A DNA stretch of 64,000 nucleotides from a virus: the IMG/VR virus record IMGVR_UViG_3300017991_000003, positions 96,001 through 160,000 of that record; one strand, 5' to 3'. Below the pieces are notes generated by a model. The model did not search any database and had not been told where the DNA came from. It saw nothing but the letters and a program-made list of their open reading frames with translations. Below are positions 1 to 64,000 of the stretch, piece by piece. The position numbers were made by a program, and so were the translations under genes. Within the stretch, counting starts at the first letter, position 1. Each line of letters opens with the position of its first letter.

Positions 1-549
1 GACCAGGAGGCTCCGGGGGCGGAGGTTGATGTTCAGATTGGAGGCTATGCCCCGTAGCACCGGTGGACGGGACCGGGCCGCGTGGACGGCGAAGGCGATT
101 GAGGCTAGCCGGTGGTTGTTGTCGGCCGCAGACGGTGTGGTGGTGGCGGGGTTGTGCTTGCGGAGCGGGTCCGTGTCGGGGACCGGGTCGGGCAGCACCA
201 GGGGACCTACGCCGTTTTTGGCCAATCGGTGGTAAAGGCTTAGAGCTGCCAAAGCCCCGAGTCCCATAGCCGGCAGCAATGCGCGGTTGGAGACTCGAGC
301 GGGGCGTGGTGCGTCGACTGAGTCGGTCGACCACCAGGCGGACAGCCCTTCACGAACGGGCCCTTCATAGAGGGGCCACGTCTTCGTCAAGGCATCAATG
401 ACGGGGACGTACATTCAGATCCGGATAGGGAGGTGGAGATGTGTTCGTGTCGGCAAACAGTGGCTCACAGGACTCATGCCATGTCTGTTAGGTCTTTTCA
501 TGCGGGCCCCCAGGCGCTATCCTGAGCCTGTCAACAACTGGAGACGACC

Positions 550-2163: not shown

Positions 2164-2186
2164 CTGGCACTGGGTGCCAGTGCCAG
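2164..2186. repeat. palindromic element copy 1 (CTGGCACTGG-GTG-CCAGTGCCAG), perfect 10-bp arms
   Basis: read directly; lies 7 bp upstream of ATG 2193. Confidence 0.8.
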
Positions 2187-8500: not shown

Positions 8501-8981
8501 TGACGTGGCGGCAGCTGGTGGTGGGCAGGCCACGCCTTTCGAGTGGGCGCATCGGACGTTCCTCAAACGAGAGGCCACGAGCTTGGGGCAGTTCCTCGAG
8601 GATCACAAGCTCGAGCTCGTGACGCAGTTTGCCGACCGACCCACCACCAAGGAGTTCTATCAGATGCGTCCGGTCTCAGGATCGCAGACGACAACCGGAG
8701 CTGGGCTGGTATTCGACGATAGCCTCTTCAGTAAGCTGGTGGATGAGAAGAAGATGACCAACCCTGCATCCACTGTGGTTAGTGATGTTCTTGAGCAGGT
8801 TCTTCCTGGACCCTTCAACGCGGTGGCCGCCTCCGCGGTAGACGCGGCTTCAAGCGATCCATTGATCCAGGAGGCTCGAGAGCAGGCCACCAACAAGTAC
8901 CTGACCACTCAAGCACGGCAGGAGTTGATCCTGTCCTATGCCCGCAAGCACTTCGGCGACCGAGGTTTCGATGGCACGTGA
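5502..8981 (+). CDS. very large hypothetical protein (1159 aa); possible structural protein
   Basis: ORF track; 3.5-kb uninterrupted frame; no catalytic motif recognised. Confidence 0.65.
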   Translation: MTAETRAGLLASQWKIFLDGVEVPHHGFSMVMSQDQVSEVMLSLEPDKILLELRPQTMVHIFAKDRFPDPAPGQEDEEGGVQFAKTYTSDEDELKDTWHLFWEGVAAGRTHQKSKGNRSIQVRARALVESLERTPAFMMGMGGIEYSSIASGSRLPATVAGVIEGGGPSSVDTLSLFTLADLFTNDGETGSDVPGRDSATPRFAERLIRLITYLSSYNGVLRQHVVRGRLLNKIASIPDSILEGILERSVGLSLLGDMQNRITSRSSVLDIIRQVMSYGFYHLVQVPMPYRPSKQPEMGSMIPTLTGKQDEEQATAHQIPYEYYRNDYVFVPETYYALPPPCNFVFPDEMADLSIGREFQSEPTRHLVQDPHLASFVGNFFYWLAPEDIIRKAREGAGDDVTSANLFAMASTFGRSINVSGATSPYAYPDSADLESGSVRSLLGAVSDLELEKGIVPSFGQNRFEALAAAAYLSRTIPRTEDQATAQSIEDFANPENAAYADLMAAVANYQLQLMRYRRQGQVSMLGHRWIIPGLPTIIFDSDISYFGQVVSTTFVVNSDGQESTTLQLDRTRPVPKMEIEEIRAALEGLSTKLQELQTQKSKVADQALGQTISSALSGPLASQTTQYGGLGAKIEQTQSALQNWNTYIGGDTVDLVTTTGAPIQETLTIEGTQFDGTGLTTYFQDLSTEAAEIQAGLDELLVDGAAVAKALNTGEIAVGGSAFSTTLTKGDQTIYAAGNVSPAYLAYLFLDVPVLVDTTGQITAAKAALGDGFSVSGLKSALGSIVNGGASSDVFTGGEAPNTVAGALAVLTVAATYYELATAAIVEWLTIQKDIADSGENLDFLDLPPSTQAAADQSYKDQYQTIVDTLTNEIIEDGQKVLEDFDTRLDWPAPPAFFSEDLIATEKLDDLYQTSFGCKPFYTGPYTATATNETVAAIRASLTELDLGELETESGLSMQDRLEYYLEYLSGVSALNNVYPILEGQEELTDDVAPPPSWHDVAAAGGGQATPFEWAHRTFLKREATSLGQFLEDHKLELVTQFADRPTTKEFYQMRPVSGSQTTTGAGLVFDDSLFSKLVDEKKMTNPASTVVSDVLEQVLPGPFNAVAASAVDAASSDPLIQEAREQATNKYLTTQARQELILSYARKHFGDRGFDGT

Positions 8982-9711
8982 TACGACTGATCGGCCGAGT
9001 AAGGCCATCCGAGACGCCCGGAAGGATACCGATCTAGGTCTGGTAGAGCGGGCGCAGAAGGGCGACAAGGAGGCGCTGAACCGGCTGATCCGTAGCCACA
9101 TGGATCTGATCCAGATGAAGGCCCGCGGGTTCCGTAACGCCCCCATCCCAATCGCGGCGATCGAGGGTGAGGGTATGCGGCTTCTGGCTTTGGCGGTTAC
9201 CAAGTTCGACCCGTCCCAGGGTGTGGCCTTCCGCACGTTCCTCGACAACTACCTGCGCGGGCTCTACCGCTACGTCAACAGCAACAAGCGCGTGGACCGG
9301 GCGCCGGAGCACAGGCACCTGCGCTTCCACCGGTACGAGGCGGTCAAGGGCCTCCTGCGGGTGGAGCATAGTCGAGAGCCCACGGTGGCCGAGCTCTCCG
9401 ATGCGTTGGGCTGGAGCCCTACGGATGTGAAGCAGATGGACCGGATGATGTCCCAGCGTAGCCTGGCGGGCAGCGGCCTCGAGAACGTCAAGGCACTGGA
9501 CCAAGCGCACAGCCGGTACCAGGAGTCGGTTGAGCTGGCGTACGCGGGGTGGACCAAGCAGCAGCAGGCTGTCTACGATCTCAGCATGGGCGCGCACGGT
9601 AAGCAGCGCCTATCATCTGTGCCGGCCATCGCCCGCACCCTTGGGATCACGGCCGACAAGGTCTACAAGATCAAGCGGGAGCTGGCCCAGGAGCTTGGTA
9701 GTTCCCTATGA
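8971..9711 (+). CDS. sigma-70 family RNA polymerase sigma factor (phage-encoded)
   Basis: internal ATG at 8971 (GAGG 8 nt upstream) preferred over ORF-track start 8938; region-2-like LVERAQKGDKEALNRLIRSHMDLI...GMRLLALAVTKFDPSQGVAFRTFLDNYLRG and region-4-like HTH VPAIARTLGITADKVYKIKRELAQEL. Confidence 0.65.
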   Translation: MARDTTDRPSKAIRDARKDTDLGLVERAQKGDKEALNRLIRSHMDLIQMKARGFRNAPIPIAAIEGEGMRLLALAVTKFDPSQGVAFRTFLDNYLRGLYRYVNSNKRVDRAPEHRHLRFHRYEAVKGLLRVEHSREPTVAELSDALGWSPTDVKQMDRMMSQRSLAGSGLENVKALDQAHSRYQESVELAYAGWTKQQQAVYDLSMGAHGKQRLSSVPAIARTLGITADKVYKIKRELAQELGSSL

Positions 9712-10252: not shown

Positions 10253-10302
10253 GACTATGTCGGGTGAGGGTGGTGGTTGGGGTATACACTCCCCAGTCAC
10301 CA

Positions 10303-10313
10303 TACTCATGCCC
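10303..10313 (-). promoter_or_regulatory. promoter-like motif copy (plus strand ATACTCATGCC)
   Basis: variant of the recurring GGACTYATGMC motif; 51 bp upstream of ATG 10252. Confidence 0.4.
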
Positions 10314-10337
10314 GACAGGCTCGCCGCTCTTGCTGGT

Positions 10338-12348: not shown

Positions 12349-12396
12349 GGTGGTTGTGGGTGGTTGAGGCTCCTGTGAGCCAAATCGGGGTTCAGG

Positions 12397-12407
12397 GGAC
12401 TCATGAC
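12397..12407 (-). promoter_or_regulatory. promoter-like motif copy (GGACTCATGAC)
   Basis: 49 bp upstream of ATG 12348. Confidence 0.5.
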
Positions 12408-12528
12408 TGATTTCACCAGGAATGTAGGAGAGGCTTGCAGGCCGGGCCCACTTCGGCCTATGCTTGACATGTCGCCACTGTGACGACACTTCTGGGCCGC
12501 GGCCCACAACCCAAGAAAGAGCAAGCAC

Positions 12529-19352: not shown

Positions 19353-19421
19353 GATGGGTGTTGATGTTGGGTGGTGCAGCGGATCTAGCCCCGTCTGGGC
19401 TGGAAAGATCCCCCGCTCACC

Positions 19422-19432
19422 AGACTCTTGCC
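19422..19432 (-). promoter_or_regulatory. promoter-like motif copy, variant (AGACTCTTGCC)
   Basis: 70 bp upstream of ATG 19352. Confidence 0.35.
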
Positions 19433-19560
19433 ACACAGCCCCCTGTTTTTGGCTTTCTAGGTACCACCAGGAGGCCTAAACTGGCTGTGTGCCCTCGACG
19501 TCGACTTTCCACTACGAGCATGTCTTTGACCCGTCCCAGACCGTCCTCAAGGGGCGGTCT

Positions 19561-20918: not shown

Positions 20919-20957
20919 GGGTGGTGTGATGGTGGTGGGGTGAAACGGATCGTCACC

Positions 20958-20968
20958 CTACTTATGCC
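20958..20968 (-). promoter_or_regulatory. promoter-like motif copy (CTACTTATGCC)
   Basis: 40 bp upstream of ATG 20918. Confidence 0.5.
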
Positions 20969-20970
20969 AC

Positions 20971-21642
20971 CTACCCCTCCTCTTCTGGCCGGTCAGGGTC
21001 CACGACCCGGTCAGGGTCCAGACCCTCGACCTTGATGACCTCGGCAGCCGACAACCACTCCACACTGTCCACCGGGACGGCATAGGTGCCTACGGATTGA
21101 TAGTGCTTCTCGCTTAGCATCGTCATCAAGCCGAGGTACTCCGTAGAGTCGCGCAGGCGCAGCATGACTTGCGTGTGGTGCGCGGGGCAGATCACGTGGT
21201 AGACGAGGGTCTCGTGATCATCCAGCTCTTGCTGAGCCCTGTGCCACGTTTCTGGCTCAGGCTTCAGAGCTCGGCCGATAATCCCGCGGCTGATCATGGA
21301 GGCACCTTCTTGATCCGCAGCCTGGGCGCGGTGTAGGGCCTCAGGGATGGGGGGTGCCTCGTCGACGGCGCCGGCGATCATCACGATCGGCTTGTCCCCG
21401 AGCATCTGAACCATGCCCAGCGAGATGTCTATGTCAGGATCTCGGCCCAATAGCCTCTCGGTGATCCGCAAGATCTGATTGGGGTCGATCTTGACGCCTA
21501 CCTCGATACGCAGCGTTCGCCCCTCGTACCCCTCCTTGAGGATGGCGAAGGGCATGGAGCTGTCGATCAGGTAGTTCAGGACAATCTGAACCAGCTCGTG
21601 ATCGTTTCGAGCCAGGTGGATGGTGTTAGCCATGTCGGTCAT
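20971..21642 (-). CDS. hypothetical protein (223 aa)
   Basis: internal ATG 21642 in ATGA overlap with upstream gene. Confidence 0.5.
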   Translation of the reverse strand: MTDMANTIHLARNDHELVQIVLNYLIDSSMPFAILKEGYEGRTLRIEVGVKIDPNQILRITERLLGRDPDIDISLGMVQMLGDKPIVMIAGAVDEAPPIPEALHRAQAADQEGASMISRGIIGRALKPEPETWHRAQQELDDHETLVYHVICPAHHTQVMLRLRDSTEYLGLMTMLSEKHYQSVGTYAVPVDSVEWLSAAEVIKVEGLDPDRVVDPDRPEEEG

Positions 21643-21935: not shown

Positions 21936-21968
21936 GGTGGTTGTAGGGGGTAAAGGGGGCGCGTCACT

Positions 21969-21979
21969 GGACTTATGAC
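21969..21979 (-). promoter_or_regulatory. promoter-like motif copy (GGACTTATGAC)
   Basis: 34 bp upstream of ATG 21935. Confidence 0.5.
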
Positions 21980-21981
21980 CC

Positions 21982-23907
21982 ATGCGTCCGCGCGCTTGGC
22001 TTACACTTTTGGACGTGGCTACGATCAAGAACACCCCGCAGAGCGAGCTCATCGAGAGCCAGACCTGTCCCTCGGCTCTCCAGGAGCTTGTGGACCTAGT
22101 AGATACCCAGCTGGAGACCGTCCTAGGGCCGCTGGGGTTCGATCTAGAGATCATCTACGCGGAGATCAAGGGCAAGCAGGCGGGGGATCTCTGGGACGCG
22201 GTGGTGACGGGCCCTCTCGAGGCGGCAGGCTCGGCGGTGGAGGAGGCGTTCGGATACGACCCGACGTCCATCTCAGCTAGTAAGGCGGAGATCGAGAACG
22301 CGCTCACGGCCATCGTGGATCCGAACAACATCCTGGCGGCCCTCACCCCAATCAAGGAACTAGGCGGGGCGCTCCTGTCTACGGACAAGCTGGTAGAGGG
22401 GGATCTGAGCCCTACGGGGCTGATCAACCAGATCCTGGACCCGACCAAGGAGAAGCAGCTCGACGGTCTTACCGAGTGCAATGAGAACGTGGTCACGGCC
22501 ACGGCGGCAACGATCACTCAGGTTGTAGCCGGTGCGGCTAACGAGGTGCTCAAGAAGGTGGGGGCAGCTCAGTCGATCCTCAGCATGGGTATGTCGCAGC
22601 TGGAGAACTTCGGCGAAGGCCTCTTCCTGCTCGCGGGAGACGCGCTGAACACGGTTCACAACGCTGAGATCATTCTTATCGACCAGATCCTCGACGTCCT
22701 CGTTGAGATGCGAGCGCTGGTGGAGGAGATGGGGAACGAGCCCTTCGGTTTCAACCACTCCAAGGTGGTGCAGGCGGCTCAGACCAACCTGCTCCAGGCG
22801 GACTCCCTCCTGTCGGCGGTCCAGGCAAAGATCGAGACTCGAGCGGGGTTTGACGGCACCTCCTACGACGCGGCTCGATCGATCATCCAGTACGTAGAGG
22901 AGCTCTTGTGCGAGGCGTCAGATGAGTTCGATCTCGGCTTTAGCTCGAAGCCGTATCGACTCCTGTCCCTGGTCTTGACCCTCGAGGCCTACCAGGCTCT
23001 CTGGTATGCCCGGGCTCAGAAAGGGGAGAGCAGCGCGGAGGGGTTGATCAGCTTCCCTGGCAGCCTGCTGAGCCAGCTCCAGACGGATAACTTCTTCTCC
23101 CCGATCATCGCTCTGGTTCGTTGCCAGTTGAACAAGGTGATCCAGGACATGGCGGATACGGACATCCGCGGCGAGCTCCTGCTCTACATCACCAAGGAGA
23201 AGAAGTGGTGCCTCGAGCTCAAGGTCCTGAACGAGACGATGAAAGCCTCGCGCAGCCTTCTTGAGGCGGGAGATGAGGCAGCCGAGTTCTCGGATCTGAT
23301 CCTGGAGGGTGTGGAGACCTACGAGGATACCAAGAAGCTGGTTACAGCTACCGCAGCCGAAGCGCAGGAAAGCATCACAGATGTCCTCACCTACGCACGA
23401 CTCAAGGTCCAGAACCAGTTGACCCCCACTAACCGAGTGACCTCTCGAATCGACGAGGCGGTATCCATCCTCACGCTTCGACGCTCTCAGATCCAGGCGC
23501 AGAGCCAGGCGCTCCTCAGCCTGCTCGGCTTGGGTAACACTGATTTCCTGCAAGGGCTGGCCTACGCCAAGCAGTTCGCAGAGTTCCTATCAGGCAAAGG
23601 CCTGGACGCCATGCTAGGGAGCCTACTTGACGGGGACTTCGACGGTGTCTTCGGGGCTGACGCCTTGACAGCCTCGATAGGCGGCAAGGTAGAGGCCTAC
23701 GCCACCAAGGTCCTCGGCTGTCTAGACACCCAGGACCCAAGCGCGACTGACAAGCTATACACAGTAGCAAAGCAGGCCAACGACGATCTTCGGGCCCAGG
23801 ACGTGCTCGTCAATCTCATCGACGGCTCTGCTTCGCTGTTTGCTCAGGGGGCGCTACTTGAGGCGCAAGAGCGCAGCGTCGACCTGAGCACGATCGAGCT
23901 AAGCTGA
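21982..23907 (+). CDS. large hypothetical protein (641 aa), L/A/E/Q-rich, probably alpha-helical
   Basis: ORF track; ATG 21982; palindromic element overlaps its stop. Confidence 0.6.
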   Translation: MRPRAWLTLLDVATIKNTPQSELIESQTCPSALQELVDLVDTQLETVLGPLGFDLEIIYAEIKGKQAGDLWDAVVTGPLEAAGSAVEEAFGYDPTSISASKAEIENALTAIVDPNNILAALTPIKELGGALLSTDKLVEGDLSPTGLINQILDPTKEKQLDGLTECNENVVTATAATITQVVAGAANEVLKKVGAAQSILSMGMSQLENFGEGLFLLAGDALNTVHNAEIILIDQILDVLVEMRALVEEMGNEPFGFNHSKVVQAAQTNLLQADSLLSAVQAKIETRAGFDGTSYDAARSIIQYVEELLCEASDEFDLGFSSKPYRLLSLVLTLEAYQALWYARAQKGESSAEGLISFPGSLLSQLQTDNFFSPIIALVRCQLNKVIQDMADTDIRGELLLYITKEKKWCLELKVLNETMKASRSLLEAGDEAAEFSDLILEGVETYEDTKKLVTATAAEAQESITDVLTYARLKVQNQLTPTNRVTSRIDEAVSILTLRRSQIQAQSQALLSLLGLGNTDFLQGLAYAKQFAEFLSGKGLDAMLGSLLDGDFDGVFGADALTASIGGKVEAYATKVLGCLDTQDPSATDKLYTVAKQANDDLRAQDVLVNLIDGSASLFAQGALLEAQERSVDLSTIELS

Positions 23908-23926
23908 CACTGGGAGGGAGTGTCAG
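23904..23926. repeat. palindromic element copy 2 (CTGACACT-GGGAGGG-AGTGTCAG)
   Basis: overlaps stop codons of the convergent genes 21982-23907 and thyX. Confidence 0.8.
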
Positions 23927-24780: not shown

Positions 24781-24896
24781 AGGTGTAGGGGGCTGCGGGG
24801 TTGAGGCTCCAGTAAAGCAGATGGGACCGGCTTCTGCCTTGTTCTTGTCTCTTTTTCTTGACAAGCAGGCACACGCGCAAGAGACTGAGTCAGATC

Positions 24897-24908
24897 GGTC
24901 ATGAGTCC
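24897..24908 (+). promoter_or_regulatory. promoter-like motif copy in plus orientation (GGTCATGAGTCC)
   Basis: same core CATGAGTCC on the coding strand, about 95 bp upstream of exonuclease ATG 25001. Confidence 0.4.
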
Positions 24909-25000
24909 TATGAGGCCACCGGTGTTGATCACATCCCTAGGCCACACCCGAACTAGGTGAGAGCCGGCTCCTGCCGGCCCTTCTGTTTTTGGAACCAAGC

Positions 25001-30865: not shown

Positions 30866-30888
30866 CTGGCACTGGCTAGGAGTGTCAG
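30866..30888. repeat. palindromic element copy 3 (CTGGCACT-GGCTAGG-AGTGTCAG)
   Basis: sits between a plus-strand and a minus-strand hairpin terminator at a convergent junction. Confidence 0.8.
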
Positions 30889-31286: not shown

Positions 31287-31305
31287 CTGGGTGGGTGGTG
31301 GTGAT

Positions 31306-31335
31306 GGTGTCTCCGGAGTAGACATCTCCGGATCA
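31306..31335 (-). promoter_or_regulatory. conserved 5' leader element with hairpin (stem TCCGGA/TCCGGA, loop GTAGACATC)
   Basis: aligns with the 46202 and 47869 copies; stem differs by a compensatory pair of substitutions. Confidence 0.55.
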
Positions 31336-31337
31336 CT

Positions 31338-31348
31338 AAACACATGCC
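31338..31348 (-). promoter_or_regulatory. promoter-like motif copy, variant (AAACACATGCC)
   Basis: 52 bp upstream of ATG 31286. Confidence 0.4.
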
Positions 31349-31385
31349 CCACAACCCCCTCTTAGTTGCTGTTTCAGGTACCAGC

Positions 31386-36357: not shown

Positions 36358-36389
36358 GGGTAGGTGGTGGGGTAGAGGTGATCGACATG

Positions 36390-36400
36390 AGACTTATGCC
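36390..36400 (-). promoter_or_regulatory. promoter-like motif copy (AGACTTATGCC)
   Basis: 33 bp upstream of ATG 36357; terminator of the tRNA unit lies just beyond. Confidence 0.5.
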
Positions 36401-36411
36401 ACAGTCCCTGG

Positions 36412-37090: not shown

Positions 37091-37164
37091 ATGTAAAGGC
37101 ATCGATGACCCGTGGGAGAGTTTCCCCACTCTGTGTTGAGCCCACAGATCATCGATGTGATTGA

Positions 37165-39024: not shown

Positions 39025-39109
39025 GGCGTCTCCTGTTGGGTTGGGTGGGAACAGTGGAGGCTCGAAGCCTCGGGGTATCAGTAGACTCGTGACACAAACC
39101 CGATAAGGT

Positions 39110-39543: not shown

Positions 39544-39566
39544 GTGGCACTGGCTAGGAGTGTCAG
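39544..39566. repeat. palindromic element copy 4 (gTGGCACT-GGCTAGG-AGTGTCAG)
   Basis: divergent region; immediately 5' of ATG 39541 (minus) and just upstream of a TTGACA hexamer preceding the GroES-like gene. Confidence 0.75.
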
Positions 39567-40776: not shown

Positions 40777-40788
40777 ACTCATGACTCA

Positions 40789-46198: not shown

Positions 46199-46201
46199 GG
46201 T

Positions 46202-46243
46202 GTTGGGTGGTGAGGGTGTCTCCGGGTAGACATCCCCGGATCA
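46202..46243 (-). promoter_or_regulatory. 42-bp leader cassette GTTGGGTGGTGAGGGTGTCTCCGGGTAGACATCCCCGGATCA with hairpin
   Basis: identical over 42 bp to 47869-47910; abuts start codon. Confidence 0.6.
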
Positions 46244-46245
46244 TT

Positions 46246-46256
46246 AGACTTATGCC
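46246..46256 (-). promoter_or_regulatory. promoter-like motif copy (AGACTTATGCC)
   Basis: 48 bp upstream of ATG 46198. Confidence 0.5.
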
Positions 46257-46357
46257 CTAACCTCTCCCCCTCCTGGCGCTTTTGGTCCATACTGGGGGCA
46301 CAACTTGACGCCCTTCGGGGCCGTCTCCCACGGATAACACAACTCCAGGAGAAGAGC

Positions 46358-47076: not shown

Positions 47077-47099
47077 CTGGCACTGGCTCCCAGTGTCAG
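47077..47099. repeat. palindromic element copy 5 (CTGGCACTGG-CTC-CCAGTGTCAG); likely also a bidirectional terminator
   Basis: flanked by AAAAAAGAAGG upstream and TCTTCTTCT downstream at a convergent junction. Confidence 0.75.
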
Positions 47100-47868: not shown

Positions 47869-47910
47869 GTTGGGTGGTGAGGGTGTCTCCGGGTAGACAT
47901 CCCCGGATCA
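47869..47910 (-). promoter_or_regulatory. 42-bp leader cassette, second identical copy
   Basis: identical to 46202-46243. Confidence 0.6.
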
Positions 47911-47912
47911 AA

Positions 47913-47923
47913 GGACTCATGAC
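47913..47923 (-). promoter_or_regulatory. promoter-like motif copy (GGACTCATGAC)
   Basis: 45 bp upstream of ATG 47868. Confidence 0.5.
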
Positions 47924-48050
47924 AGACCCAAGAGATGGGTTTGGCCCGCTAGTCCCTGGCACACATCCCGGCCTAGGCCCTAGACTTAGGACGAACCCTA
48001 AGGGCTCTTTCTGGGCCCCAAGTCCCCTTCTAACCGGATCCTGAGACACC

Positions 48051-49805: not shown

Positions 49806-52800
49806 ATGGCTGAGTTCAAGGACTGCCAGAGCCCGAGCCCCCTGACCGGGCGGATCGGCCCCGATCTGATCGAAGAGGTTGGCGGGGTCTCTCTGGCAGG
49901 TGTGTTGGCAGGCACGGAGACGCTGCCGGTTGGTGCAATCCCTGTCACAGCCCCGCTTTATGACAGTCCGAGCCCTACAGGTACGGCTATTGGACTGCGG
50001 TTGGATTCGAGCCTGACGGTTGATGCCCAGGGCCGGCTCAGTATTGCTGGAGCCCCATCGCCCGCGGCCCACGCCTCGAGCCACGAGCCTGGCGGGTCTG
50101 ATCCGATCACCCCTGCTGCCTTTGACGGGCTTATCACCCCGCCGGTCGCCACGACGGTTGTCCTTGGCGGTGTCAAGGACGGTGACGGCGTCTCGATCGC
50201 CGGTGACGGCACCCTGACCCTCGATCTGGCCGCCGCCAGTGGCCTCGAGATCAGCGGCGGGACCCTGAGACTGGCACTGGGTACCGGTGTCAGCTTCAGC
50301 GGCAACGATCTGGTCCTGGACGAGGCCACGGACTCCACGCTGGGCGGCATCATCGCCGGCACGGGTCTATCAGTCAGCTCGGGTACGGCGAGCCTCAACG
50401 CCCCCCAAGTCACGGGAGCCTCCCTAGCGGGCAGCACTCTGGTCTGGGATACCAGCCCGAGTGCCCAGAGTCCCAGCCCTGCTCTGAGGCTTCCGGCGAG
50501 CTTCACGTACACCAAGGCGATCCCGCAGTCGCAGCTGCCGACCGCGGCCTACGGCAGCCCGGGCAGCTCGAGCCCCAGCCCGCAGCTCGGCCTTGTCCGC
50601 ATCTATGGCCCGAGCGAGGGCCTGACGCTTAGCGATGGGCTCCTGTCGCTGGCGACTCCGATCAGCACGGATCACCTACCCACCGCTACTGGTCTAGGTG
50701 GGCGAGGCATCGTCCGCGCGGGCCTACTTGACGGTACGGGCGTCTACGTCTCCAACAGTACGACCGGCCAGCTGGCGATCCTGATTGACGCCACGTCGGA
50801 CACGTTGGCGTTGTCGTCGAGCGGGATCAAGGTCAAGTCCAATCGCTTCCTGGCGCTGACTGGCACCGGTAACCTCCCCAGCCCCGCGGCGAGCCCGAGC
50901 CCGGGGACTGACGGCTGGATGACCGGGTCGGTTCGATTCACCAACGACCTGGGTGAGCCTGCGATCCGCACCGGTAACCAGCGGATCCGCTACGAGTTCG
51001 GGGCCAGCCCGTCTCCCGGGGCGATCCTGGCATCGGCTGATCTAAGCGATCTACTAACGTACCAGGAGATCAGCACACTCATCTCCCAGGCTGAGCTTGG
51101 TGTCGAGGTTTGGACTCCTGGGCGACCTGTGCAGGCAGAGCCGGGTACGAGCCTAGGTGCGTTGGCGGAGCTCTCGGCCGGGGATCGGTTCCTTACGAGC
51201 ACGTCGTCCAACACCAACCCCGGCGGTGACTGGAATGCGCACAACTGCGTGTTCGCGGTCTGGACGGAAACGGCTCCCGATACCTTTACCTGGGTCTATG
51301 AGACCCCCACGGTCAACACCTGGTTCACAGACGACGTAACTGGGGACACGTGGGCTGTTGTTGTCGGCTCCCCCTCCCCGAAGTCGCCCTCACCGAACCC
51401 GTCGCGAGAGGCTTTCCGGTATCGCGCTCGTCAAGATGACACAGCATCGACGGCCCGAGCTGGTCGCGTGCGTGTCCCGACGACCAGTGGCCTCGTCATG
51501 GACGGCGAGGATATTCGGCTATCCCTCGCCTCGGACATCGGGGTCAGTACGGGCCTGCGTCTGATCACCCGAGCTCGCAACAACGCGCTAGCTCTCGATC
51601 TCAGCCGGTCCCAAGGGATCTTGGAGCTCAACTCCGACGGGCGCCTTCAGGTTGCCGCGTCCTCGATCCAGGCCACGGAGATCGCGGACAACACCATCGT
51701 CCTCGACAACCTGGCCGCGGATCAGGTGACAGGCGGTACCAAAGACTTCATCGCCACGCAGTACGACGGGCTATCCGTCCGGCTGGTGGGGGACTCGGAA
51801 GACTTCCGCGTCACTGGGGCGCCTGTCAGCACGGCTACGACCATTCTGATCCACACCGAGGACGGTATCGGTGTGGCGGAGGAGTCGATCAACACTGACG
51901 CTCTCTCGGACGAGGCGGTTAGCTACAGCAAACTCCTGATGCCCACGGCCTCCGGTCTGGAGGACAACGGGCAGGACAAGGTCCGGGTCAAGCTCCAGAC
52001 CCGCAGCGGCCTCGAGCGAACGGTGGATGGCCTGGCGGTCAACATCCATGACGTGGTGGACGATGCCACGATTGAGCTCGACACATCCACGGGCGGCTTG
52101 CGCGTCAAGACAGGTAGCCTGACGTCGTCGTACTTCGCGTCGGGCCTGGCGATCTCGGCCTCGGTCCTCACGCTGGGAGCCCCTATGCTCTCGTCGAGCG
52201 GGCTCCTGACCTTCTGCTACCAGAGCCCTCTGGTCCTGACCGGCAGCCCCGGCTGCTTGACGATCGGCGAAGGCTTGATCAGCTCGCCGTATCTCGGCAC
52301 CGGGTCGGTCAGCTACGCCAAGCTCAAGCTGGCGAGCCCCTCCGGCATCACGCAGACGGCCGGCGGTATCAAGGTCGACATCTCGACGGGTCTCGCCTTC
52401 AGCGGCAACCAGATCGTGGTCGACCAGGTGCCGGCAGACGCGATGGCACTGGATGCGGATTCGGCGTTGTACGCCGCTAGCCCGACCAGTCCGCTGACGC
52501 AGCTGGAGCTGAGCATCCGGGTCAGCAGCCCGTTCACGCAGACGGGTGGTACGCTGGATCTAGCGGACGAGGGTGTTCAGGTGAGTCACCTGGATCGCTC
52601 CAAGCTGCGCGGTAGCTTCCTGGCCAGCGGCCTCGAGGCCGGCCTAGGTACCCAGACCAGTCCCTTCGACTCTTGGGTCACGAGCCCGGCGTTCTACACC
52701 GGCTCGGACGCCCCGGGTATGCGGGTGGCTACGCGGACGCGATCCGATCACGACTACCTGGATGCGGCGGGTCAGGGACAAGGCACGTTCGAGCCCTATA

Positions 52801-54130: not shown

Positions 54131-54149
54131 CCTCTAACCCCACAGACTC

Positions 54150-54692
54150 ATGACGACCTCTATTCGAAAGCGGGTGAGCTGGTTCGGTGACCGGACCACG
54201 CGCATCCCCAAGCATCGCGGGCTTCACCCGAGCGGTACTCCGACGGAGATGCCTGAAGATGATGCCAACGACCTGATCCGAGACTATCCCAGTCACCTCG
54301 TGGTGGCTGACCCGATCACGTTGGTTGCGGAGCACATCGGTGAAGAGGTGGACCGGAAGGAGTTCTACGACGCTGGATACCGCTCCTACGGTACGCAGCC
54401 TGTGAAGTGGAAAGGCCCTGCGGTGACCTCGGTCACGCCGACGGCCAGCCCGGCTACGTCGCCTACGATCGTGTGGGACGCGATGCCCGCTCGGTTTGCT
54501 CCTCAGAGCTATCAGCTGTACCGAGGTACCGCGGCAGCGCCGAAAACGACGCTGGTGGGCTCGACTACCCTCCTGACGCTCAGCGAGGCCCCGCCGGCTC
54601 AAGGCACCTACATCTACAGCGTGACCTACACGGATCCCCACGGGTATGAGAGCGACGTCGGTACGTCGGTGTCTCACTACTCGTCTCCGTGA
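54150..54692 (+). CDS. hypothetical protein (180 aa), tandem paralogue B
   Basis: see paralogue A. Confidence 0.5.
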   Translation: MTTSIRKRVSWFGDRTTRIPKHRGLHPSGTPTEMPEDDANDLIRDYPSHLVVADPITLVAEHIGEEVDRKEFYDAGYRSYGTQPVKWKGPAVTSVTPTASPATSPTIVWDAMPARFAPQSYQLYRGTAAAPKTTLVGSTTLLTLSEAPPAQGTYIYSVTYTDPHGYESDVGTSVSHYSSP

Positions 54693-58030: not shown

Positions 58031-58053
58031 TAAAAAAGAGCCCCGAAGGGCTC
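58031..58053 (-). terminator. rho-independent terminator (minus strand), same hairpin as 30897-30912
   Basis: AAAAAAGAGCCCCGAAGGGCTC; T-tract on minus strand. Confidence 0.6.
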
Positions 58054-58074
58054 CTAGACCTTGTTCGGGCCTAA

Positions 58075-61413: not shown

Positions 61414-62377
61414 TTTGAATCTCCGGGGCGGTGTGGTCAGTACAGAAACGGCTACCCTCAATGGTGTCGGCGTTGCACCGGGGCTCCCCGATAGGGTGGA
61501 CGGGACACTTGCCCGGGGCGGCGGGCTCGGTGCGGGCGGCCTCCTCGTCGAGGCGCTCCTCGTCGTCCACGAACTTGCACGACGGGCAGAACGGGCCGGG
61601 GTGGTTATGCCCGGCGGTGAACGGACCAACCGTGTCGTCGCAGGACACGCAAGTCAGGGGCCCATCCGGGGCGGCGGGGCGGTTATCCCACCATGCAGCA
61701 CCTTTCGGGTTGCCGTGGCCGCACCCATCCTCCGAGGAGCCGCACTCCTCACAGAAGGTGTCGCCCGGCAGCGGCTGATCATGCAGGTCGCACGGCCCCG
61801 CCTCGAACGGTAGGCGTTTGAAGCGGGTGGCGTTCACCGCCTCGATGGCTCGCTCGGACCACGGGTTGACCTCGGGCTCGGTGCGGGCCAGGGCGGTGTC
61901 GAGGCGTTCCCAGAAGTCCCCAGGCGCGGGGCGGGAAAAGTAGCTCATCTTGGGCGACCGGGAGTGCTGTTTCATCTCGGCACCAAGCGCCTCCAGCGCC
62001 CGGATCCGCTCGGCCAGGGCGTTGCGCTCGGCTTCGAGTTCCCGCTCGCGCTCGGCGGACTCGACGCGGAGTTTGACGTACCCAGCGCCCACCTCTTCGA
62101 GCTTGCGTTGGAGGTCGGCCTCGCGTTCGGCGGACTCCTCGACCTGTACGGCCATGACCTTCACGCAGTCGTTCACGTTGTCGTGCGGGCAGTCGCCGGT
62201 CGCGCAGCCGTGCCATTGGGGCTCGCGCTCGGCGGGCTCGCGGCCAGCACGGATCAGGCGGGCGGCATTGTGGTAGTTAGCCTGGTCCTCCGTGTTGCCT
62301 TGTAGGCGCGACTCCTCCTCTCGGAGCGCCAGGAACTCCAGCGTCCACTCGAGGCTCGGGGTGGGGTGGTTACTCAT
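61403..62377 (-). CDS. coiled-coil protein with multiple Cys clusters, paralogue family member
   Basis: internal ATG 62377 (MSNHPTPSLEW); ALARTEPE block; several CxxC pairs; N-terminal part of ORF-track frame is R-rich and rejected. Confidence 0.5.
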   Translation of the reverse strand: MSNHPTPSLEWTLEFLALREEESRLQGNTEDQANYHNAARLIRAGREPAEREPQWHGCATGDCPHDNVNDCVKVMAVQVEESAEREADLQRKLEEVGAGYVKLRVESAERERELEAERNALAERIRALEALGAEMKQHSRSPKMSYFSRPAPGDFWERLDTALARTEPEVNPWSERAIEAVNATRFKRLPFEAGPCDLHDQPLPGDTFCEECGSSEDGCGHGNPKGAAWWDNRPAAPDGPLTCVSCDDTVGPFTAGHNHPGPFCPSCKFVDDEERLDEEAARTEPAAPGKCPVHPIGEPRCNADTIEGSRFCTDHTAPEIQNDH

Positions 62378-62534
62378 CGGTCTGCTCCGGTGTGTAGGGG
62401 TTGTCGGTCGGGTCCTGGCCGAAGGCGTGGTTCCACCCCAAAGCGTACGCCTCGGCCTTCGCGGCCTGGATCGCGGCGTAGAGGGCGGACTCGGCGGCGT
62501 CGCGGTCCCGCATCCTCCAAGGGCGTGGGTCCAT
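62370..62534 (-). CDS. small hypothetical protein (start ambiguous)
   Basis: ATG 62534 or GTG 62600; only the C-terminal part of the ORF-track frame looks protein-like. Confidence 0.3.
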   Translation of the reverse strand: MDPRPWRMRDRDAAESALYAAIQAAKAEAYALGWNHAFGQDPTDNPYTPEQTDE

Positions 62535-62592
62535 GCAATACTGCGACTGCGCCGAGATGGCCTGGCGGACCTCCTTCTCGCACGGTCGGGGG

Positions 62593-62916
62593 CTATCCAC
62601 GGGCGGCCTCCTGCGCGGCCCGACGGACCGCATCCAGCTCCTTCTTCCTGGTTGCCGCCCAGTCCTTCGCTTTGAAGTAGGCGGACTCGGCCACGCGCAG
62701 CGCCCGGTCCCACGCCTCGGCCTCCGTCGGACACCAATCCTCGATCGAGACCGTGGTGAGGTGCTCGGTGGCGCGGCACCGCTCCACGCGGATCTGCTTC
62801 GCGGTCCGCTTGAGGACGGGGACGACGAAGCACTTGGGTGTCGGGTCGTTGTAGCTCGCGGACCGCACAACGTAGTGGAACTCTTCGTCTTGGTTCGGGG
62901 TCGGTTGGTCACTCAT
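62593..62916 (-). CDS. hypothetical protein (107 aa), N-terminal motif family member
   Basis: internal ATG 62916 (MSDQPTPNQDEE); start region AGACCGATGAGT shared with 62377. Confidence 0.45.
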   Translation of the reverse strand: MSDQPTPNQDEEFHYVVRSASYNDPTPKCFVVPVLKRTAKQIRVERCRATEHLTTVSIEDWCPTEAEAWDRALRVAESAYFKAKDWAATRKKELDAVRRAAQEAARG

Positions 62917-62953
62917 CGGTCTTGTCCTCCTTGGGGTCGAGCCAGGGGGCGGC

Positions 62954-63151
62954 TCATTGGAAATCCTCATGCCCCGAGTCGCGGAGCCTCTTGATTTCGC
63001 CCTGTGCCCAGTCCAGGCACTCACGAGAGTGGGCAATCAGCGCTTCAGCCTTGTGAATCGACTCCCTGTGCTTCTTGACCCATGCTGTGAGGCTGTCACG
63101 TATGGATTCGTCGCGCGGGCGAAGCCCATGGAATCTGTAGAAGGCGATCAT
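62954..63151 (-). CDS. hypothetical protein (65 aa)
   Basis: ORF track. Confidence 0.4.
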   Translation of the reverse strand: MIAFYRFHGLRPRDESIRDSLTAWVKKHRESIHKAEALIAHSRECLDWAQGEIKRLRDSGHEDFQ

Positions 63152-63393
63152 CGCGGGCCCTCCTGCTCCAGGTGGGCGTCGATCAGGTCCAGCATTTCCA
63201 GGGCATCCTGGAGGGCTTCCTCCTTAGAGTAGCGCCACTCCCTCTCCCCGCTGTAGGAGAGGAAACCCTGCCAGAACCCGCCGGCCATGCGGTCGAGGCG
63301 GTCTCGGCGGACTTCTTTCGGAGATTGAGGGGCCGGCAGGACCCCCTCGGCGACGAGGTTCCTCACGACAAACTCAATGTCATTGCTATTCAT
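63148..63393 (-). CDS. hypothetical protein (81 aa)
   Basis: ORF track; overlapping start/stop. Confidence 0.4.
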   Translation of the reverse strand: MNSNDIEFVVRNLVAEGVLPAPQSPKEVRRDRLDRMAGGFWQGFLSYSGEREWRYSKEEALQDALEMLDLIDAHLEQEGPR

Positions 63394-63757
63394 CGCTTCC
63401 CCCCTGCTCCCCGAGGAGCGCGGCGAGGCGAGTTGAAACGGTAGCGGTGTGGTTCGTCTTCATTGGATACCCCACGTGGTGCAGGAAGGGTTGCAGCTGG
63501 AACAACACCTCCCGGGCCTCAAGGGCGTAGGCCAGGAGGGCGGGGGCGGCGGCAAGAAGTGCGACGAAAGCGTCCAACTCTTTACGAGGCACATCATGAG
63601 GCGCACTACACGACGCCATGAACTTGTTCTCCTTCGTGGGCTTGTCTAGCCGCACGGAGTCGCGAAGCGTGTAGATCAGGCGGTCTTCGACAAGGAGTTC
63701 GGGTATGTGTCCGGCCAGTGCGTCCAGGTCGAGCTCGTTGTAGTGGGTGGGGTTCAT
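63386..63757 (-). CDS. hypothetical protein (123 aa)
   Basis: internal ATG 63757 (MNPTHYNELDLD); promoter-like motif 35 bp upstream. Confidence 0.45.
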   Translation of the reverse strand: MNPTHYNELDLDALAGHIPELLVEDRLIYTLRDSVRLDKPTKENKFMASCSAPHDVPRKELDAFVALLAAAPALLAYALEAREVLFQLQPFLHHVGYPMKTNHTATVSTRLAALLGEQGGSDE

Positions 63758-63791
63758 TGTTCGGTCCGTGGTAAGAGAAACAGGCGTCAGT

Positions 63792-63802
63792 GGACTTATG
63801 CC
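63792..63802 (-). promoter_or_regulatory. promoter-like motif copy (GGACTTATGCC)
   Basis: 35 bp upstream of ATG 63757. Confidence 0.5.
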
Positions 63803-63819
63803 ACGGACGCCTGCTCTAT

Positions 63820-63842
63820 CTGGCACTGGTACCTAGTGTCAG
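63820..63842. repeat. palindromic element copy 6 (CTGGCACT-GGTACCT-AGTGTCAG)
   Basis: overlaps stop of the HTH gene 63839-63988 and abuts the promoter-like motif of the next gene. Confidence 0.8.
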
Positions 63843-63988
63843 CCTTCGTACAGCTTCTGGACCGATGTCCCCAGCGCCTTGGCGATCTTGCTCATGGTCG
63901 GCCACTTAGGGATGAAGCGGCTGTGCTCGGCAGCGTTGATGTACTGACGCTCTTTACCTACACGTCGACCCAGCTCAGCTTGGCTCAT
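63839..63988 (-). CDS. XRE-family (Cro/CI-type) helix-turn-helix regulator (49 aa; may extend beyond window edge)
   Basis: hand-translated MSQAELGRRVGKERQYINAAEHSRFIPKWPTMSKIAKALGTSVQKLYEG; classic HTH_XRE pattern; not in ORF track. Confidence 0.55.
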   Translation of the reverse strand: MSQAELGRRVGKERQYINAAEHSRFIPKWPTMSKIAKALGTSVQKLYEG

Positions 63989-64000
63989 ATTTTTAGCCTC

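What the first reader, a model, noticed from the sequence alone, without database searches (positions are those of the whole stretch)
63757..63988. Cro-like HTH gene followed by a palindrome and a promoter-like motif in operator-promoter order
On the minus strand the order is HTH gene (63988 to 63839), palindromic element (63842 to 63820, overlapping the HTH stop), promoter-like motif (63802 to 63792), then the next gene at 63757. This is the textbook arrangement for a regulator controlling the adjacent promoter. The HTH gene may extend beyond the window edge.
Basis: partly seen in the sequence, partly recalled or inferred. Interest (0 to 1): 0.45.

Follow-up and report, generated by a model that had tools for sequence, protein, structure and literature searches.

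The report
Phage transcription-unit boundary after regulator gene
In a large, previously undescribed phage genome, the short gap after a small DNA-binding regulator gene most likely holds the stop signal of an early operon overlapping the start signal of the next gene block, plus one copy of a 23-base repeat of unknown role found at least 14 times in the genome; the layout is ordinary, but the promoter consensus and the repeat are new.

Summary
The HTH gene encodes an Xre/HTH_3 regulator cut by the window edge. Its true length is 66 aa, and the ATG at 63988 is internal. It is the second gene of a two-gene operon driven by a TTGACA-17-TATCTT promoter beyond the window, in an ORFan-rich phage genome of at least 174 kb. 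The "promoter-like motif" fails a sigma-70 scan. However, it is one of at least 15 copies of a bipartite phage-specific element, GCCARR-N15/16-GKCATRAGTC-N3-TGA. All copies are intergenic and nearly all are gene-oriented, 28-88 nt before start codons. The phage also encodes its own sigma factor. This is one of seven strong terminator-like structures, all just after stop codons. The palindrome is one of at least 14 copies of a 23-bp polar near-palindrome. Here it overlaps both the HTH stop codon and the -35-like box. Best reading: a compact transcription-unit boundary, with the early-operon terminator overlapping the next unit's promoter. Control by the HTH protein through the palindrome remains possible but unsupported: most copies are not at promoters, and none lies at the HTH operon's own promoter.

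The parts
63839..64000 (-). 3' part (54 of 66 codons) of an Xre/HTH_3-family regulator gene. The true start is 39 nt beyond the window edge, and the stop TGA is at 63841-63839.
   Evidence: Pfam HTH_3 E 7.8e-9 from profile position 6. Full 66-aa protein on contig L001 9719-9919, HTH_3 E 2.7e-11. Nearest solved structures are the 65-66-aa PbsX-family protein 9k3w and CylR2.
63820..63842 (.). One copy of a 23-bp polar near-palindrome family, CTGRCACTGG-N3-CCAGTGYCAG. It overlaps the HTH stop codon (the TGA inside CTGA) and supplies the -35-like box of the downstream promoter.
   Evidence: As RNA it folds at -12.8 kcal/mol (z -3.1) on the + strand but only -5.7 (z -0.36) on the HTH-sense strand.
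63819..63824 (-). -35-like box GCCAGA of the phage-specific promoter.
   Evidence: GCCARR lies 15-16 nt upstream of the core in 6 of 15 promoter copies, against a background of 0.005 (P 7.5e-11).
63787..63802 (-). Promoter core GGCATAAGTC-CAC-TGA (family consensus GKCATRAGTC-N3-TGA).
   Evidence: PWM score 25.3; the 15 best hits are all intergenic.
63781..63813 (-). GC-rich hairpin (13-nt arms, 7-nt loop). Inferred intrinsic terminator of the 285-aa/HTH operon. Its loop and 3' arm carry the promoter core.
   Evidence: I1, 92% complementary. (-24.5 kcal/mol, z -5.9). (one of 7 strong intergenic hairpin + T-tract structures).
63773..63780 (-). T-tract TTTCTCTT directly after the hairpin.
   Evidence: Sequence.
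63758..63786 (-). Predicted unstructured, C/A-rich leader without a Shine-Dalgarno sequence for the 123-aa gene. It contains CCACGGAC (63771-63764), which can alternatively pair with the 5' arm of the hairpin.
   Evidence: searches (-1.6 kcal/mol, z +0.85; I2), and leaders of other genes.
63386..63757 (-). 123-aa ORFan gene, the first gene of the next inferred transcription unit.
   Evidence: Gene calls in three assemblies. No homologue among 5.8 billion proteins.
2164..2186 (.). Palindrome family copy with a perfect G-C at positions 4/20. It ends 6 nt before the ATG of the 684-aa gene.
23904..23926 (.). Palindrome family copy at a convergent junction. Both stop codons (the 641-aa gene and ThyX) are the TGA inside its CTGA arms.
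30866..30888 (.). Palindrome family copy lying between two convergent intrinsic terminators.
39544..39566 (.). Palindrome family copy in a divergent spacer, 2 nt upstream of the ATG of the 143-aa gene.
47077..47099 (.). Palindrome family copy at a convergent junction, with an A-tract before it and TCTTCTTCT after it.
50271..50293 (.). Palindrome family copy inside the 1262-aa gene.
465..483 (-). Promoter family copy.
   Evidence: score 25.5.
10297..10315 (-). Promoter family copy.
   Evidence: 25.2.
12392..12410 (-). Promoter family copy.
   Evidence: 23.5.
19417..19435 (-). Promoter family copy.
   Evidence: 25.0.
20953..20971 (-). Promoter family copy.
   Evidence: 21.4.
21964..21982 (-). 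Promoter family copy. It is the closest relative of the HTH-adjacent copy and has a weaker inverted repeat around its core.
   Evidence: 27.8.
24895..24913 (+). Promoter family copy, the only strong one on the + strand.
   Evidence: 27.0.
31333..31351 (-). Promoter family copy, preceded by a terminator-like hairpin with TCTTTTAG.
   Evidence: (16.7).
36385..36403 (-). Promoter family copy, preceded by a terminator (36449-36420 followed by TTTTTAGA).
   Evidence: (24.9).
39078..39096 (-). Promoter family copy (not in the training set).
   Evidence: 21.8.
46241..46259 (-). Promoter family copy.
   Evidence: 27.5.
47908..47926 (-). Promoter family copy.
   Evidence: 26.9.
8971..9711 (+). Phage-encoded sigma-70-family factor. 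It is a candidate reader of the GKCATRAGTC promoters; this link is inferred, not shown.
   Evidence: Pfam Sigma70_r3 30.8 bits against a 25.3 cut-off. NCBIfam RpoD/SigA-family matches over residues 23-237, E 3.8e-12.

Best explanation
The 81-bp spacer between the HTH gene and the next gene is a compact transcription-unit boundary in a large, novel phage genome.

Shown: a host-type promoter (TTGACA-17-TATCTT) lies about 1.1 kb upstream, just past the window edge, in a divergent spacer. It precedes a two-gene block: a 285-aa acidic ORFan followed by the 66-aa Xre/HTH_3 protein, whose ATG is 4 nt after the upstream stop.

Inferred: this is an early operon, and its transcripts end at the 13-bp-arm hairpin plus UUUCUCUU at 63813-63773.

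Shown: the loop and 3' arm of that hairpin carry the core of a recurrent, bipartite, phage-specific promoter-like element, GCCARR-N15/16-GKCATRAGTC-N3-TGA.

Inferred: this element starts the next unit (the 123-aa gene and those downstream), with a start site near the conserved TGA (about 63788). Such transcripts would lack the hairpin's 5' arm, so they escape termination and carry an unstructured leader. The element may be read by the phage's own sigma factor.

Shown: the 23-bp palindrome is one copy of a genome-wide polar repeat. Here it overlaps the HTH stop codon and the -35-like box.

Inferred: whatever binds the repeat would also shut this promoter. Whether that protein is the HTH is open.
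For: Operon structure and sigma-70-type promoter: (10/12 match, the only strict intergenic hit in 78 kb).

HTH identity.

Terminator:
- Inverted repeat of 13 nt, 92% complementary.
- -24.5 kcal/mol with z -5.9, followed by UUUCUCUU.
- Genome-wide relaxed scan: hairpin + T-tract with dG <= -20 occurs 7 times in 4.3 kb of intergenic DNA, always 0-81 nt after a sense-strand stop, against 3 times in about 74 kb of coding DNA. The HTH hairpin is one of the 7.

Promoter:
- Exact CATAAGTC is 4/4 intergenic and gene-oriented.
- The 15 top PWM hits are all intergenic, 13 of them upstream of minus-strand genes, and 4 were not in the training set.
- An independent copy lies elsewhere in the genome, at L007:3121.
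- The -35-like GCCARR sits at 15-16 nt in 6/15 copies, P 7.5e-11.
- The phage encodes a sigma factor.

Recurrent layout: a terminator followed by this promoter also occurs at about 36.4 kb and about 31.4 kb.

Leader: the predicted start site gives an unstructured leader resembling the C/A-rich leaders of other genes behind this promoter.
Against: - No transcript data exist. Start and end points are inferred from sequence alone.
- The U-tract is interrupted (UUUCUCUU), unlike the TTTTTAG-type tails of the cleanest terminators here. The consensus terminator scan did not flag it, because of the mismatch in the stem.
- A weaker inverted repeat also flanks the core of the most similar promoter copy (21982). 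That copy lies in a divergent spacer with no upstream gene to terminate and no T-tract, so the repeat could have a promoter-linked or operator role instead.
- The promoter PWM was trained on intergenic hits, so it is partly circular. The unbiased support comes from the exact-word test, the non-training hits and the -35 box statistic.
- No related genome exists to test conservation.
Confidence: 0.55

Rival explanations
1. The 66-aa HTH protein binds the 23-bp near-palindrome as a dimer. At this locus it occludes the -35-like box and represses the adjacent promoter. At the other 13 or more copies it acts as a roadblock or boundary factor, in the manner of stoperators.
For: - The palindrome overlaps the -35-like box GCCAGA.
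- Arm sequences are conserved as sequence, not merely as pairing, which fits a sequence-specific protein.
- The CACTGG-N3-CCAGTG core has the half-site geometry used by small Xre-type dimers (own knowledge). The nearest solved relatives are 65-66-aa proteins such as CylR2.
- On the HTH-sense RNA the palindrome does not fold better than shuffles (z -0.36), so a DNA-level role is more likely than an mRNA hairpin.
Against: - There is no evidence of binding.
- Only 1 of at least 14 copies overlaps a promoter, and none of the other 14 promoter copies has the palindrome.
- No copy lies at the HTH operon's own promoter.
- 12 of 14 copies carry the same G.T/A.C asymmetry (P 0.0065), which a symmetric homodimer site does not predict.
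- A second, unrelated 66-aa HTH protein (45373-45573) is an equally good candidate.
Confidence: 0.2
2. The 13-nt inverted repeat around the promoter core (63813-63781) is a DNA-level operator for the HTH or another regulator, centred on the -10-like element, rather than an RNA terminator.
For: - The inverted repeat is centred exactly on the -10-like core.
- A third half-site, CCACGGAC, lies 22 nt downstream (I2).
- A weaker repeat surrounds the core of the sister promoter at 21982, in a divergent spacer where no termination is needed.
Against: - The half-site GTCNGTGG is not enriched in the genome (16 observed against 15.4 expected).
- The repeat is followed immediately by a T-tract, and it belongs to the class of strong hairpin + T-tract structures that lie almost exclusively just after stop codons.
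- Part of the 3' arm is simply the promoter consensus (C-N3-TGA).
Confidence: 0.12
3. The palindrome plays no part in regulating this promoter. It is a strand-polar, hairpin-forming element that acts on single-stranded DNA or antisense RNA and is tied to replication or strand asymmetry. It happens to sit at a gene boundary here, as it does elsewhere. This reading is compatible with the best explanation.
For: - 12 of 14 copies have G.T on one strand and A.C on the other.
- Three further transition asymmetries fall on the same strand, 3/3.
- The well-pairing form is on the + strand for all 8 oriented copies left of 64 kb, and on the - strand for the 4 copies at 67.9-71.1 kb.
- GC skew switches sign at about 65.5 kb.
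- The stable fold occurs only on the + strand at this locus.
- The copies inside the 3406-aa gene are maintained at DNA level: rare ACA and AGT codons in 4/4, with unrelated flanks.
Against: - The 4 right-hand copies are all in one gene, so they are not independent.
- The skew switch also coincides with a change of gene class and orientation, so it need not mark a replication origin or terminus.
- The orientation of L005, L007 and L011 relative to the window is assumed from L006.
- Arm sequences are conserved rather than covarying, except for one GG/CC to CC/GG copy.
Confidence: 0.3
4. GKCATRAGTC-N3-TGA is not a promoter. It is a regulator-binding site or a 5'-leader RNA element shared by a set of genes.
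For: It does not match the sigma-70 consensus. No transcription start sites are known.
Against: - It has a bipartite structure with a second box at sigma-70-like spacing.
- Its distance to start codons varies (28-88 nt), which is unlike a ribosome-linked element.
- It is asymmetric, unlike typical dimer operators.
- It has no Rfam match.
- It is always oriented with the downstream gene.
Confidence: 0.12

Closest known systems
Small single-domain Xre/HTH_3 regulators (PbsX-family protein 9k3w, CylR2, 434 Cro-type proteins)
   Same: Length of 65-66 aa, and a full HTH_3 domain. These proteins act as dimers on inverted repeats near promoters (own knowledge).
   Different: No homologue closer than about 30% identity was found. 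The DNA target is unknown. The gene is not part of a cI/cro-type divergent switch.
Lambda PR-cro-tR1 layout: an early regulator gene followed by a terminator that separates immediate-early from delayed-early genes (own knowledge)
   Same: An early host-type promoter, a small regulator gene, an intrinsic terminator, and then the next gene block.
   Different: Here the next block appears to have its own phage-specific promoter embedded in the terminator, rather than depending on antitermination. No nut-like element or N-like protein was identified. The regulator is the second gene of its operon.
Phage-encoded sigma factors with their own promoter consensus, for example SPO1 gp28 or T4 gp55 (own knowledge)
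   Same: The phage encodes a sigma-70-family protein and has a recurrent non-host bipartite promoter-like motif.
   Different: The link between this sigma factor and this motif is inferred only. The consensus GCCARR / CATRAGTC-N3-TGA matches none that I know.
Cluster A mycobacteriophage stoperators (PMC9283540)
   Same: Many copies of one short site are spread through the genome, often in short spacers or at stop codons, and one overlaps a promoter.
   Different: Stoperators are 13-mer asymmetric sites bound by a monomeric 183-aa two-domain repressor and oriented with transcription. Here the sites are 23-bp near-palindromes. Their polarity does not follow transcription (3 sense against 6-7 antisense). 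Several lie inside genes. The candidate protein is 66 aa.
Polar or strand-specific hairpin elements: REP/BIME, IS200/IS605 ends, Ter sites (own knowledge)
   Same: An imperfect palindrome with a built-in strand asymmetry, whose orientation correlates with a compositional strand switch.
   Different: No HUH enzyme, transposase, Tus-like or RTP-like protein was identified. Copies are embedded in frame in coding sequence. No mobility is evident.

Membership tests
Xre / HTH_3 (PF01381) DNA-binding proteins | HTH_3 domain above Pfam's gathering score | tested here: met
   43.8 bits against a 23 cut-off, covering the whole domain (1-55) on residues 9-63 of the 66-aa protein. The in-window fragment scores 35.9 bits.
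Cro-type lysis/lysogeny switch (lambdoid) | Regulator is the first gene of an operon divergent from a repressor gene | tested here: not met
   The HTH gene is second, after a 285-aa ORFan. The divergent genes are 685 aa and 3406 aa with no HTH domain.
Cro-type lysis/lysogeny switch (lambdoid) | Repeated operators in the shared promoter region | tested here: not met
   There is no copy of the 23-bp family and no significant palindrome in the 88-bp divergent spacer.
Intrinsic (factor-independent) terminator | GC-rich stem-loop directly followed by a U-rich tract on the sense strand | tested here: met
   -24.5 kcal/mol with z -5.9, then UUUCUCUU (6 of 8 U, interrupted). The strict consensus scan missed it because of one stem mismatch.
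Intrinsic (factor-independent) terminator | Position just downstream of a stop codon, in the sense orientation | tested here: met
   The hairpin ends 59 nt after the HTH stop. All 7 strong intergenic candidates lie 0-81 nt after a sense-strand stop.
Intrinsic (factor-independent) terminator | Transcript 3' ends at the U-tract | not testable with these tools
   No transcript data are available.
Canonical sigma-70 promoter | TTGACA-16/18-TATAAT match at 63802-63792 | tested here: not met
   0 hits in 62000-64000. By contrast the operon's upstream promoter scores 10/12.
Phage-specific promoter family GCCARR-N15/16-GKCATRAGTC-N3-TGA (defined here) | Recurrence restricted to intergenic DNA, oriented with the downstream gene | tested here: met
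Phage-specific promoter family GCCARR-N15/16-GKCATRAGTC-N3-TGA (defined here) | Second conserved box at sigma-70-like spacing | tested here: met
   6/15 copies, including this one, P 7.5e-11.
Phage-specific promoter family GCCARR-N15/16-GKCATRAGTC-N3-TGA (defined here) | Transcription start just downstream of the core; dependence on a given sigma factor | not testable with these tools
   Needs 5'-end mapping and in vitro transcription.
Stoperator system | Many copies of one site across the genome, including promoter and gene-end positions | tested here: met
   At least 14 copies. Three stop codons are embedded in the arms, and one copy overlaps a -35-like box.
Stoperator system | Asymmetric 13-mer whose orientation follows the direction of transcription | tested here: not met
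   The site is a 23-bp near-palindrome. Its polarity is sense in 3 copies and antisense in 6-7. Stoperator features were taken from PMC9283540.
Stoperator system | Two-domain monomeric repressor of about 183 aa | tested here: not met
   The candidate is a single-domain 66-aa protein.

The most novel reading that the evidence does not exclude
The 23-bp element is a new kind of phage genome-wide cis element. It is a strand-polar hairpin or near-palindrome, kept at DNA level even inside coding sequence. Its polarity flips at the compositional strand switch next to the HTH operon. It would be read either as a single-stranded hairpin during replication or by a small dimeric protein such as this HTH, and so would couple replication direction or fork passage to the boundaries of transcription units, including shut-off of the promoter at 63787-63824.
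Probability: 0.2. Interest if true: 0.7.

Novelty: new variant of a known kind. Interest (0 to 1): 0.4.

Why it matters
At the level of this locus the result is ordinary: an early regulator gene, a terminator and the next promoter. Its value is as an entry point to the transcription programme of a phage lineage that is essentially uncharacterised: at least 174 kb, almost no detectable homologues, and no match in catalogued phages. Three things came out of the analysis from sequence alone. They are a host-type early promoter, a new bipartite promoter consensus that may belong to the phage's own sigma factor, and a clear class of intrinsic terminators. The 23-bp polar repeat is the unexpected part. 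If its polarity really tracks replication, or if the small HTH protein binds it, it would be a new example of a genome-wide cis element organising a large phage genome.

Tried and rejected
- DNA similarity of the last 4 kb to 50,697 phage records: no match.
- PHROGs and Pfam on 30 or so window proteins: almost nothing apart from the HTH, ThyX, DUF5661, DUF932, glycosyl- and methyltransferases and a sigma factor.
- Relatives of the HTH, 123-aa and 285-aa proteins in IMG/VR and among 5.8 billion proteins: none usable. L008-L010 share only 32-45% identity within the HTH domain. No comparative or covariation test was therefore possible.
- The other assemblies (L002, L003) are 100% identical across this region.
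- Motif scans of IMG/VR and metagenomes: the strict palindrome occurs only in this phage in IMG/VR. The looser pattern and the metagenome scan gave unrelated single hits.
- Rfam: only the two tRNAs.
- Half-site GTCNGTGG of the terminator stem as a recurrent operator: not enriched.
- A palindrome copy, or any significant inverted repeat, in the HTH operon's own promoter: none. The 10-bp repeat I4 is at chance level for the region.
- The palindrome as an RNA hairpin in the HTH mRNA: rejected (z -0.36).
- The palindrome copies in the 3406-aa gene as protein repeats: rejected. The peptide motif occurs only at the four copies, uses rare codons in 4/4, and has unrelated flanks.
- An N4-like template-strand hairpin promoter read by a giant virion RNA polymerase: considered because of the adjacent 3406-aa gene and the 3-nt loops. 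However, polarity fits gene direction in only 7 of 10 copies, and nothing identifies the giant protein. Left untested.
- GTG at 63826 as the start of the next gene (146 aa): rejected in favour of ATG 63757, which was called in three assemblies. The extension would run through the palindrome and the hairpin.
Full report
**What is in the sequence.** On the minus strand the last 240 bases of the window read as follows:
- the end of an open reading frame, with its stop TGA at 63841-63839;
- CTGACACTAGGTACCAGTGCCAG (63842-63820);
- ATAGAG;
- CAGGCGTCCGTGG (63813-63801);
- CATAAGT (the loop);
- CCACTGACGCCTG (63793-63781);
- TTTCTCTT (63780-63773);
- ACCACGGACCGAACA;
- ATG at 63757.

The reading frame is open to the window edge. 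Pfam HTH_3 aligns from profile position 6 at the very first residue, so the gene is cut by the window.

**Beyond the window edge.** An exact look-up of the downstream 123-aa and 81-aa proteins returned a 174,660-bp metagenomic contig (locus L001) and two shorter assemblies, all 100% identical here. A cluster record mentions a 193-kb contig.

On L001 the HTH gene is 66 aa (MSDSPGDRIAQLREAKNMSQ...). Its ATG lies 4 nt after the stop of a co-directional 285-aa acidic ORFan. That gene is preceded by an 88-bp divergent spacer containing TTGACA-17-TATCTT, a 10/12 match. This is the only strict sigma-70-type hit in any intergenic region of the 78 kb I could assemble. The divergent genes encode 685-aa and 3406-aa proteins with no Pfam domains.

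**Genome context.** The window is 60-67% GC and has no DNA match in 50,697 phage records. It has almost no PHROG or Pfam hits. It does carry ThyX, two tRNA-Leu genes and a glycosyl-/methyltransferase block, and its left end overlaps an IMG/VR viral contig. It is a large, very novel phage genome. Neither the HTH protein nor its neighbours have detectable relatives, so all the evidence below comes from within this genome.

**The 'promoter-like motif'.** A consensus scan finds no sigma-70 promoter in 62000-64000. While surveying hairpins in every intergenic region, I noticed that GGCATAAGTC recurs. The evidence that it is a promoter is as follows:
- Exact CATAAGTC occurs four times in 78 kb. Every copy is intergenic (5.5% of the sequence), on the strand of the downstream gene, and 41-56 nt from its start codon.
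- Allowing two mismatches and aligning the intergenic copies gives G[GT]CAT[AG]AGTC-N3-TGA.
- A PWM of this core separates cleanly. The 15 best hits are all intergenic, 13 precede minus-strand genes at 28-88 nt, and four were not used for training.
- One more copy lies in another part of the genome (L007:3121).
- A second box, GCCARR, sits 15-16 nt upstream of the core in 6 of 15 copies, against a background of 0.5% (P 7.5e-11). Measured from the CATRAG hexamer this gives a 17-18-nt spacer, which is sigma-70-family geometry.
- The phage encodes a divergent sigma-70-family protein at 8971-9711. Sigma70_r3 scores above the Pfam cut-off, and NCBIfam RpoD-family matches cover residues 23-237.

I conclude that the motif is very probably a phage-specific promoter. 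That the phage sigma factor reads it is inference.

The promoter core lies in the loop and 3' arm of a 13-nt-arm inverted repeat (92% complementary). As RNA on the sense strand it folds at -24.5 kcal/mol (z -5.9) and is followed directly by UUUCUCUU (in a wider context z -3.5).

A relaxed genome-wide scan, allowing one mismatch or bulge, found 80 hairpin + T-tract candidates. With dG <= -20 there are 7 in the 4.3 kb of intergenic DNA, all 0-81 nt after a sense-strand stop codon. Only 3 lie in about 74 kb of coding DNA. The HTH hairpin is one of the seven. Its U-tract is interrupted, so it may be leaky.

Two other co-directional junctions show a terminator followed by the same promoter type (about 36.4 kb and about 31.4 kb). 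Here the two overlap. If transcription starts about 7 nt past the CATAAG hexamer, near the conserved TGA, the transcript lacks the 5' arm and cannot form the terminator. The resulting leader (63790-63758) is unstructured (-1.6 kcal/mol, z +0.85). It is also C/A-rich with no Shine-Dalgarno sequence, like the leaders of other genes behind this promoter.

**The palindrome.** Searching for it revealed a family:
- The consensus is CTGRCACTGG-N3-CCAGTGYCAG, with the outer 8-nt arms best conserved.
- There are 11 copies with at most one mismatch in 73.7 kb, against 0.03 expected, plus three more in other parts of the same genome.
- A half-site PWM shows a discrete family, with nothing intermediate.
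- In IMG/VR the strict pattern occurs only in this phage. Metagenome hits are unrelated.

Placed on the gene map, the copies lie:
- at three of nine convergent junctions (23904, 30866, 47077);
- 6 nt and 2 nt before two start codons (2164, 39544);
- after the HTH gene (63820);
- inside the 1262-aa gene (50271), inside an ORF on L007, and four times inside the 3406-aa gene.

Three stop codons (HTH, the 641-aa gene, ThyX) are the TGA inside a CTGA arm. The four copies in the giant gene share a reading frame (LTLxxSA[ST]). However, that peptide occurs nowhere else in 2234 residues, all four copies use ACA (8% of Thr codons) and AGT (9% of Ser codons), and the flanks are unrelated. The constraint therefore acts on the DNA.

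**Polarity of the palindrome.** In 12 of 14 copies, position 4 and its partner form G.T on one strand and A.C on the other (P 0.0065 for a symmetric site). Three further transition asymmetries fall on the same strand. At this locus the + strand folds at -12.8 kcal/mol (z -3.1), while the HTH-sense strand is no better than shuffles.

The well-pairing form is on the + strand for all eight oriented copies left of 64 kb. It is on the - strand for the four copies at 67.9-71.1 kb. GC skew changes sign at about 65.5 kb, at the divergent promoter spacer. Polarity does not follow transcription (3 sense, 6-7 antisense).

There are caveats. The four right-hand copies are in one gene. The skew switch also coincides with a change of gene class. 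The orientation of three loci is assumed. I cannot explain this element.

**Does the HTH protein control the adjacent promoter?**

For:
- The palindrome's last five bases plus A are the -35-like box of this promoter, so a bound protein would block it.
- The arms are conserved as sequence.
- The CACTGG-N3-CCAGTG core suits a small Xre-type dimer. The nearest solved relatives are 65-66-aa proteins such as CylR2.

Against:
- Only this copy of the palindrome meets a promoter, and none of the other 14 promoter copies has one.
- No copy lies at the HTH operon's own promoter.
- The systematic asymmetry is not what a symmetric dimer site predicts.
- A second, unrelated 66-aa HTH gene (45373-45573) is an equally good candidate.

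**Comparison with known systems.**
- The protein is a member of the Xre/HTH_3 family (tested, met).
- The locus is not a Cro-type switch: gene order, divergent partner and operators were all tested and not met.
- The layout works like lambda's PR-cro-tR1 boundary (own knowledge). The difference is that the next block has its own promoter embedded in the terminator.
- The repeat resembles cluster A mycobacteriophage stoperators in copy number and in sitting at gene ends. It fails their defining features: an asymmetric 13-mer, orientation with transcription, and a two-domain monomeric repressor (PMC9283540).

**Verdict.** The best explanation is a compact transcription-unit boundary, with an early-operon terminator overlapping a phage-specific promoter (confidence 0.55). 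One copy of an unexplained genome-wide polar repeat sits on the -35-like box. The locus itself is ordinary. The promoter consensus and the repeat are new and worth following up.

Noticed in passing
window 2164, 23904, 30866, 39544, 47077, 50271, 63820; beyond the window at equivalents 67900, 68323, 69520, 71083 (L001); L005:6134, L007:5735, L011:3371: The 23-bp near-palindrome family is strand-polar (G.T on one strand in 12 of 14 copies). Its polarity flips between 63.8 and 67.9 kb, where GC skew also changes sign (about 65.5 kb).
   Followed up: partly
window 8971-9711 (+): A divergent sigma-70-family protein of 246 aa. Sigma70_r3 scores above the Pfam cut-off, and the protein shares only 24-29% identity with sigma factors of catalogued phages.
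   Followed up: partly
window 45373-45573 (-): A second 66-aa HTH_3/HTH_31 gene in another minus-strand cluster. It is only distantly related to the first (26% identity over 27 aa) and resembles HipB/MqsA-type antitoxins in NCBIfam.
   Followed up: partly
L041:3151-4254 (-), about 250-1350 nt left of the window start: A 367-aa reverse-transcriptase gene (RVT_1). A diversity-generating retroelement or a retron-like system is possible. I did not look for template or variable repeats.
   Followed up: no
window about 46199-46245, 47869-47912 and 31287-31335 (-): Three promoters of the family share a conserved leader, TGA-TCCGG(G/A)GATGTCTAC(C/T)CCGGAGACACC. It contains a hairpin that shows one compensatory G-C to A-U change. 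The copies at 46259 and 47926 have near-identical promoter + leader sequences.
   Followed up: no
upstream of most minus-strand genes, e.g. window 36358-36385, 20919-20950, 12349-12375: Leaders are C/A-rich (CACCACCC-type) and lack a purine-rich Shine-Dalgarno sequence. This suggests SD-independent initiation, or a host that makes little use of SD.
   Followed up: no
window 36413-37351 (-): The called 312-aa ORF contains two tRNA-Leu genes (37004-37090, 37165-37250) and is probably spurious. A clean terminator (36449-36420 followed by TTTTTAGA) follows the tRNAs.
   Followed up: partly
window 40770-40788 (-) and 54136-54154 (-): Good copies of the promoter core sit in tiny spacers between plus-strand genes and point antisense to them. 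They could be antisense promoters or chance matches.
   Followed up: no
window 18501-18529, 20354-20385, 30896-30929, 58039-58072 (-) and others: The canonical intrinsic terminators in this genome share a (C)TCTTTTTAG-like tail after the hairpin.
   Followed up: partly
L001:1-6704 (window-equivalent 67054 onward, + strand): A 3406-aa gene with no detectable domains lies next to the early divergent promoter region. Its size recalls virion-packaged giant proteins, but nothing identifies it.
   Followed up: no
window 12464, 24858, 39590 (+) and 529, 64961 (-): TTGACA boxes occur in several divergent spacers but lack a canonical -10 at 16-18 nt. Only the one before the 285-aa/HTH operon has a good -10.
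   Followed up: partly
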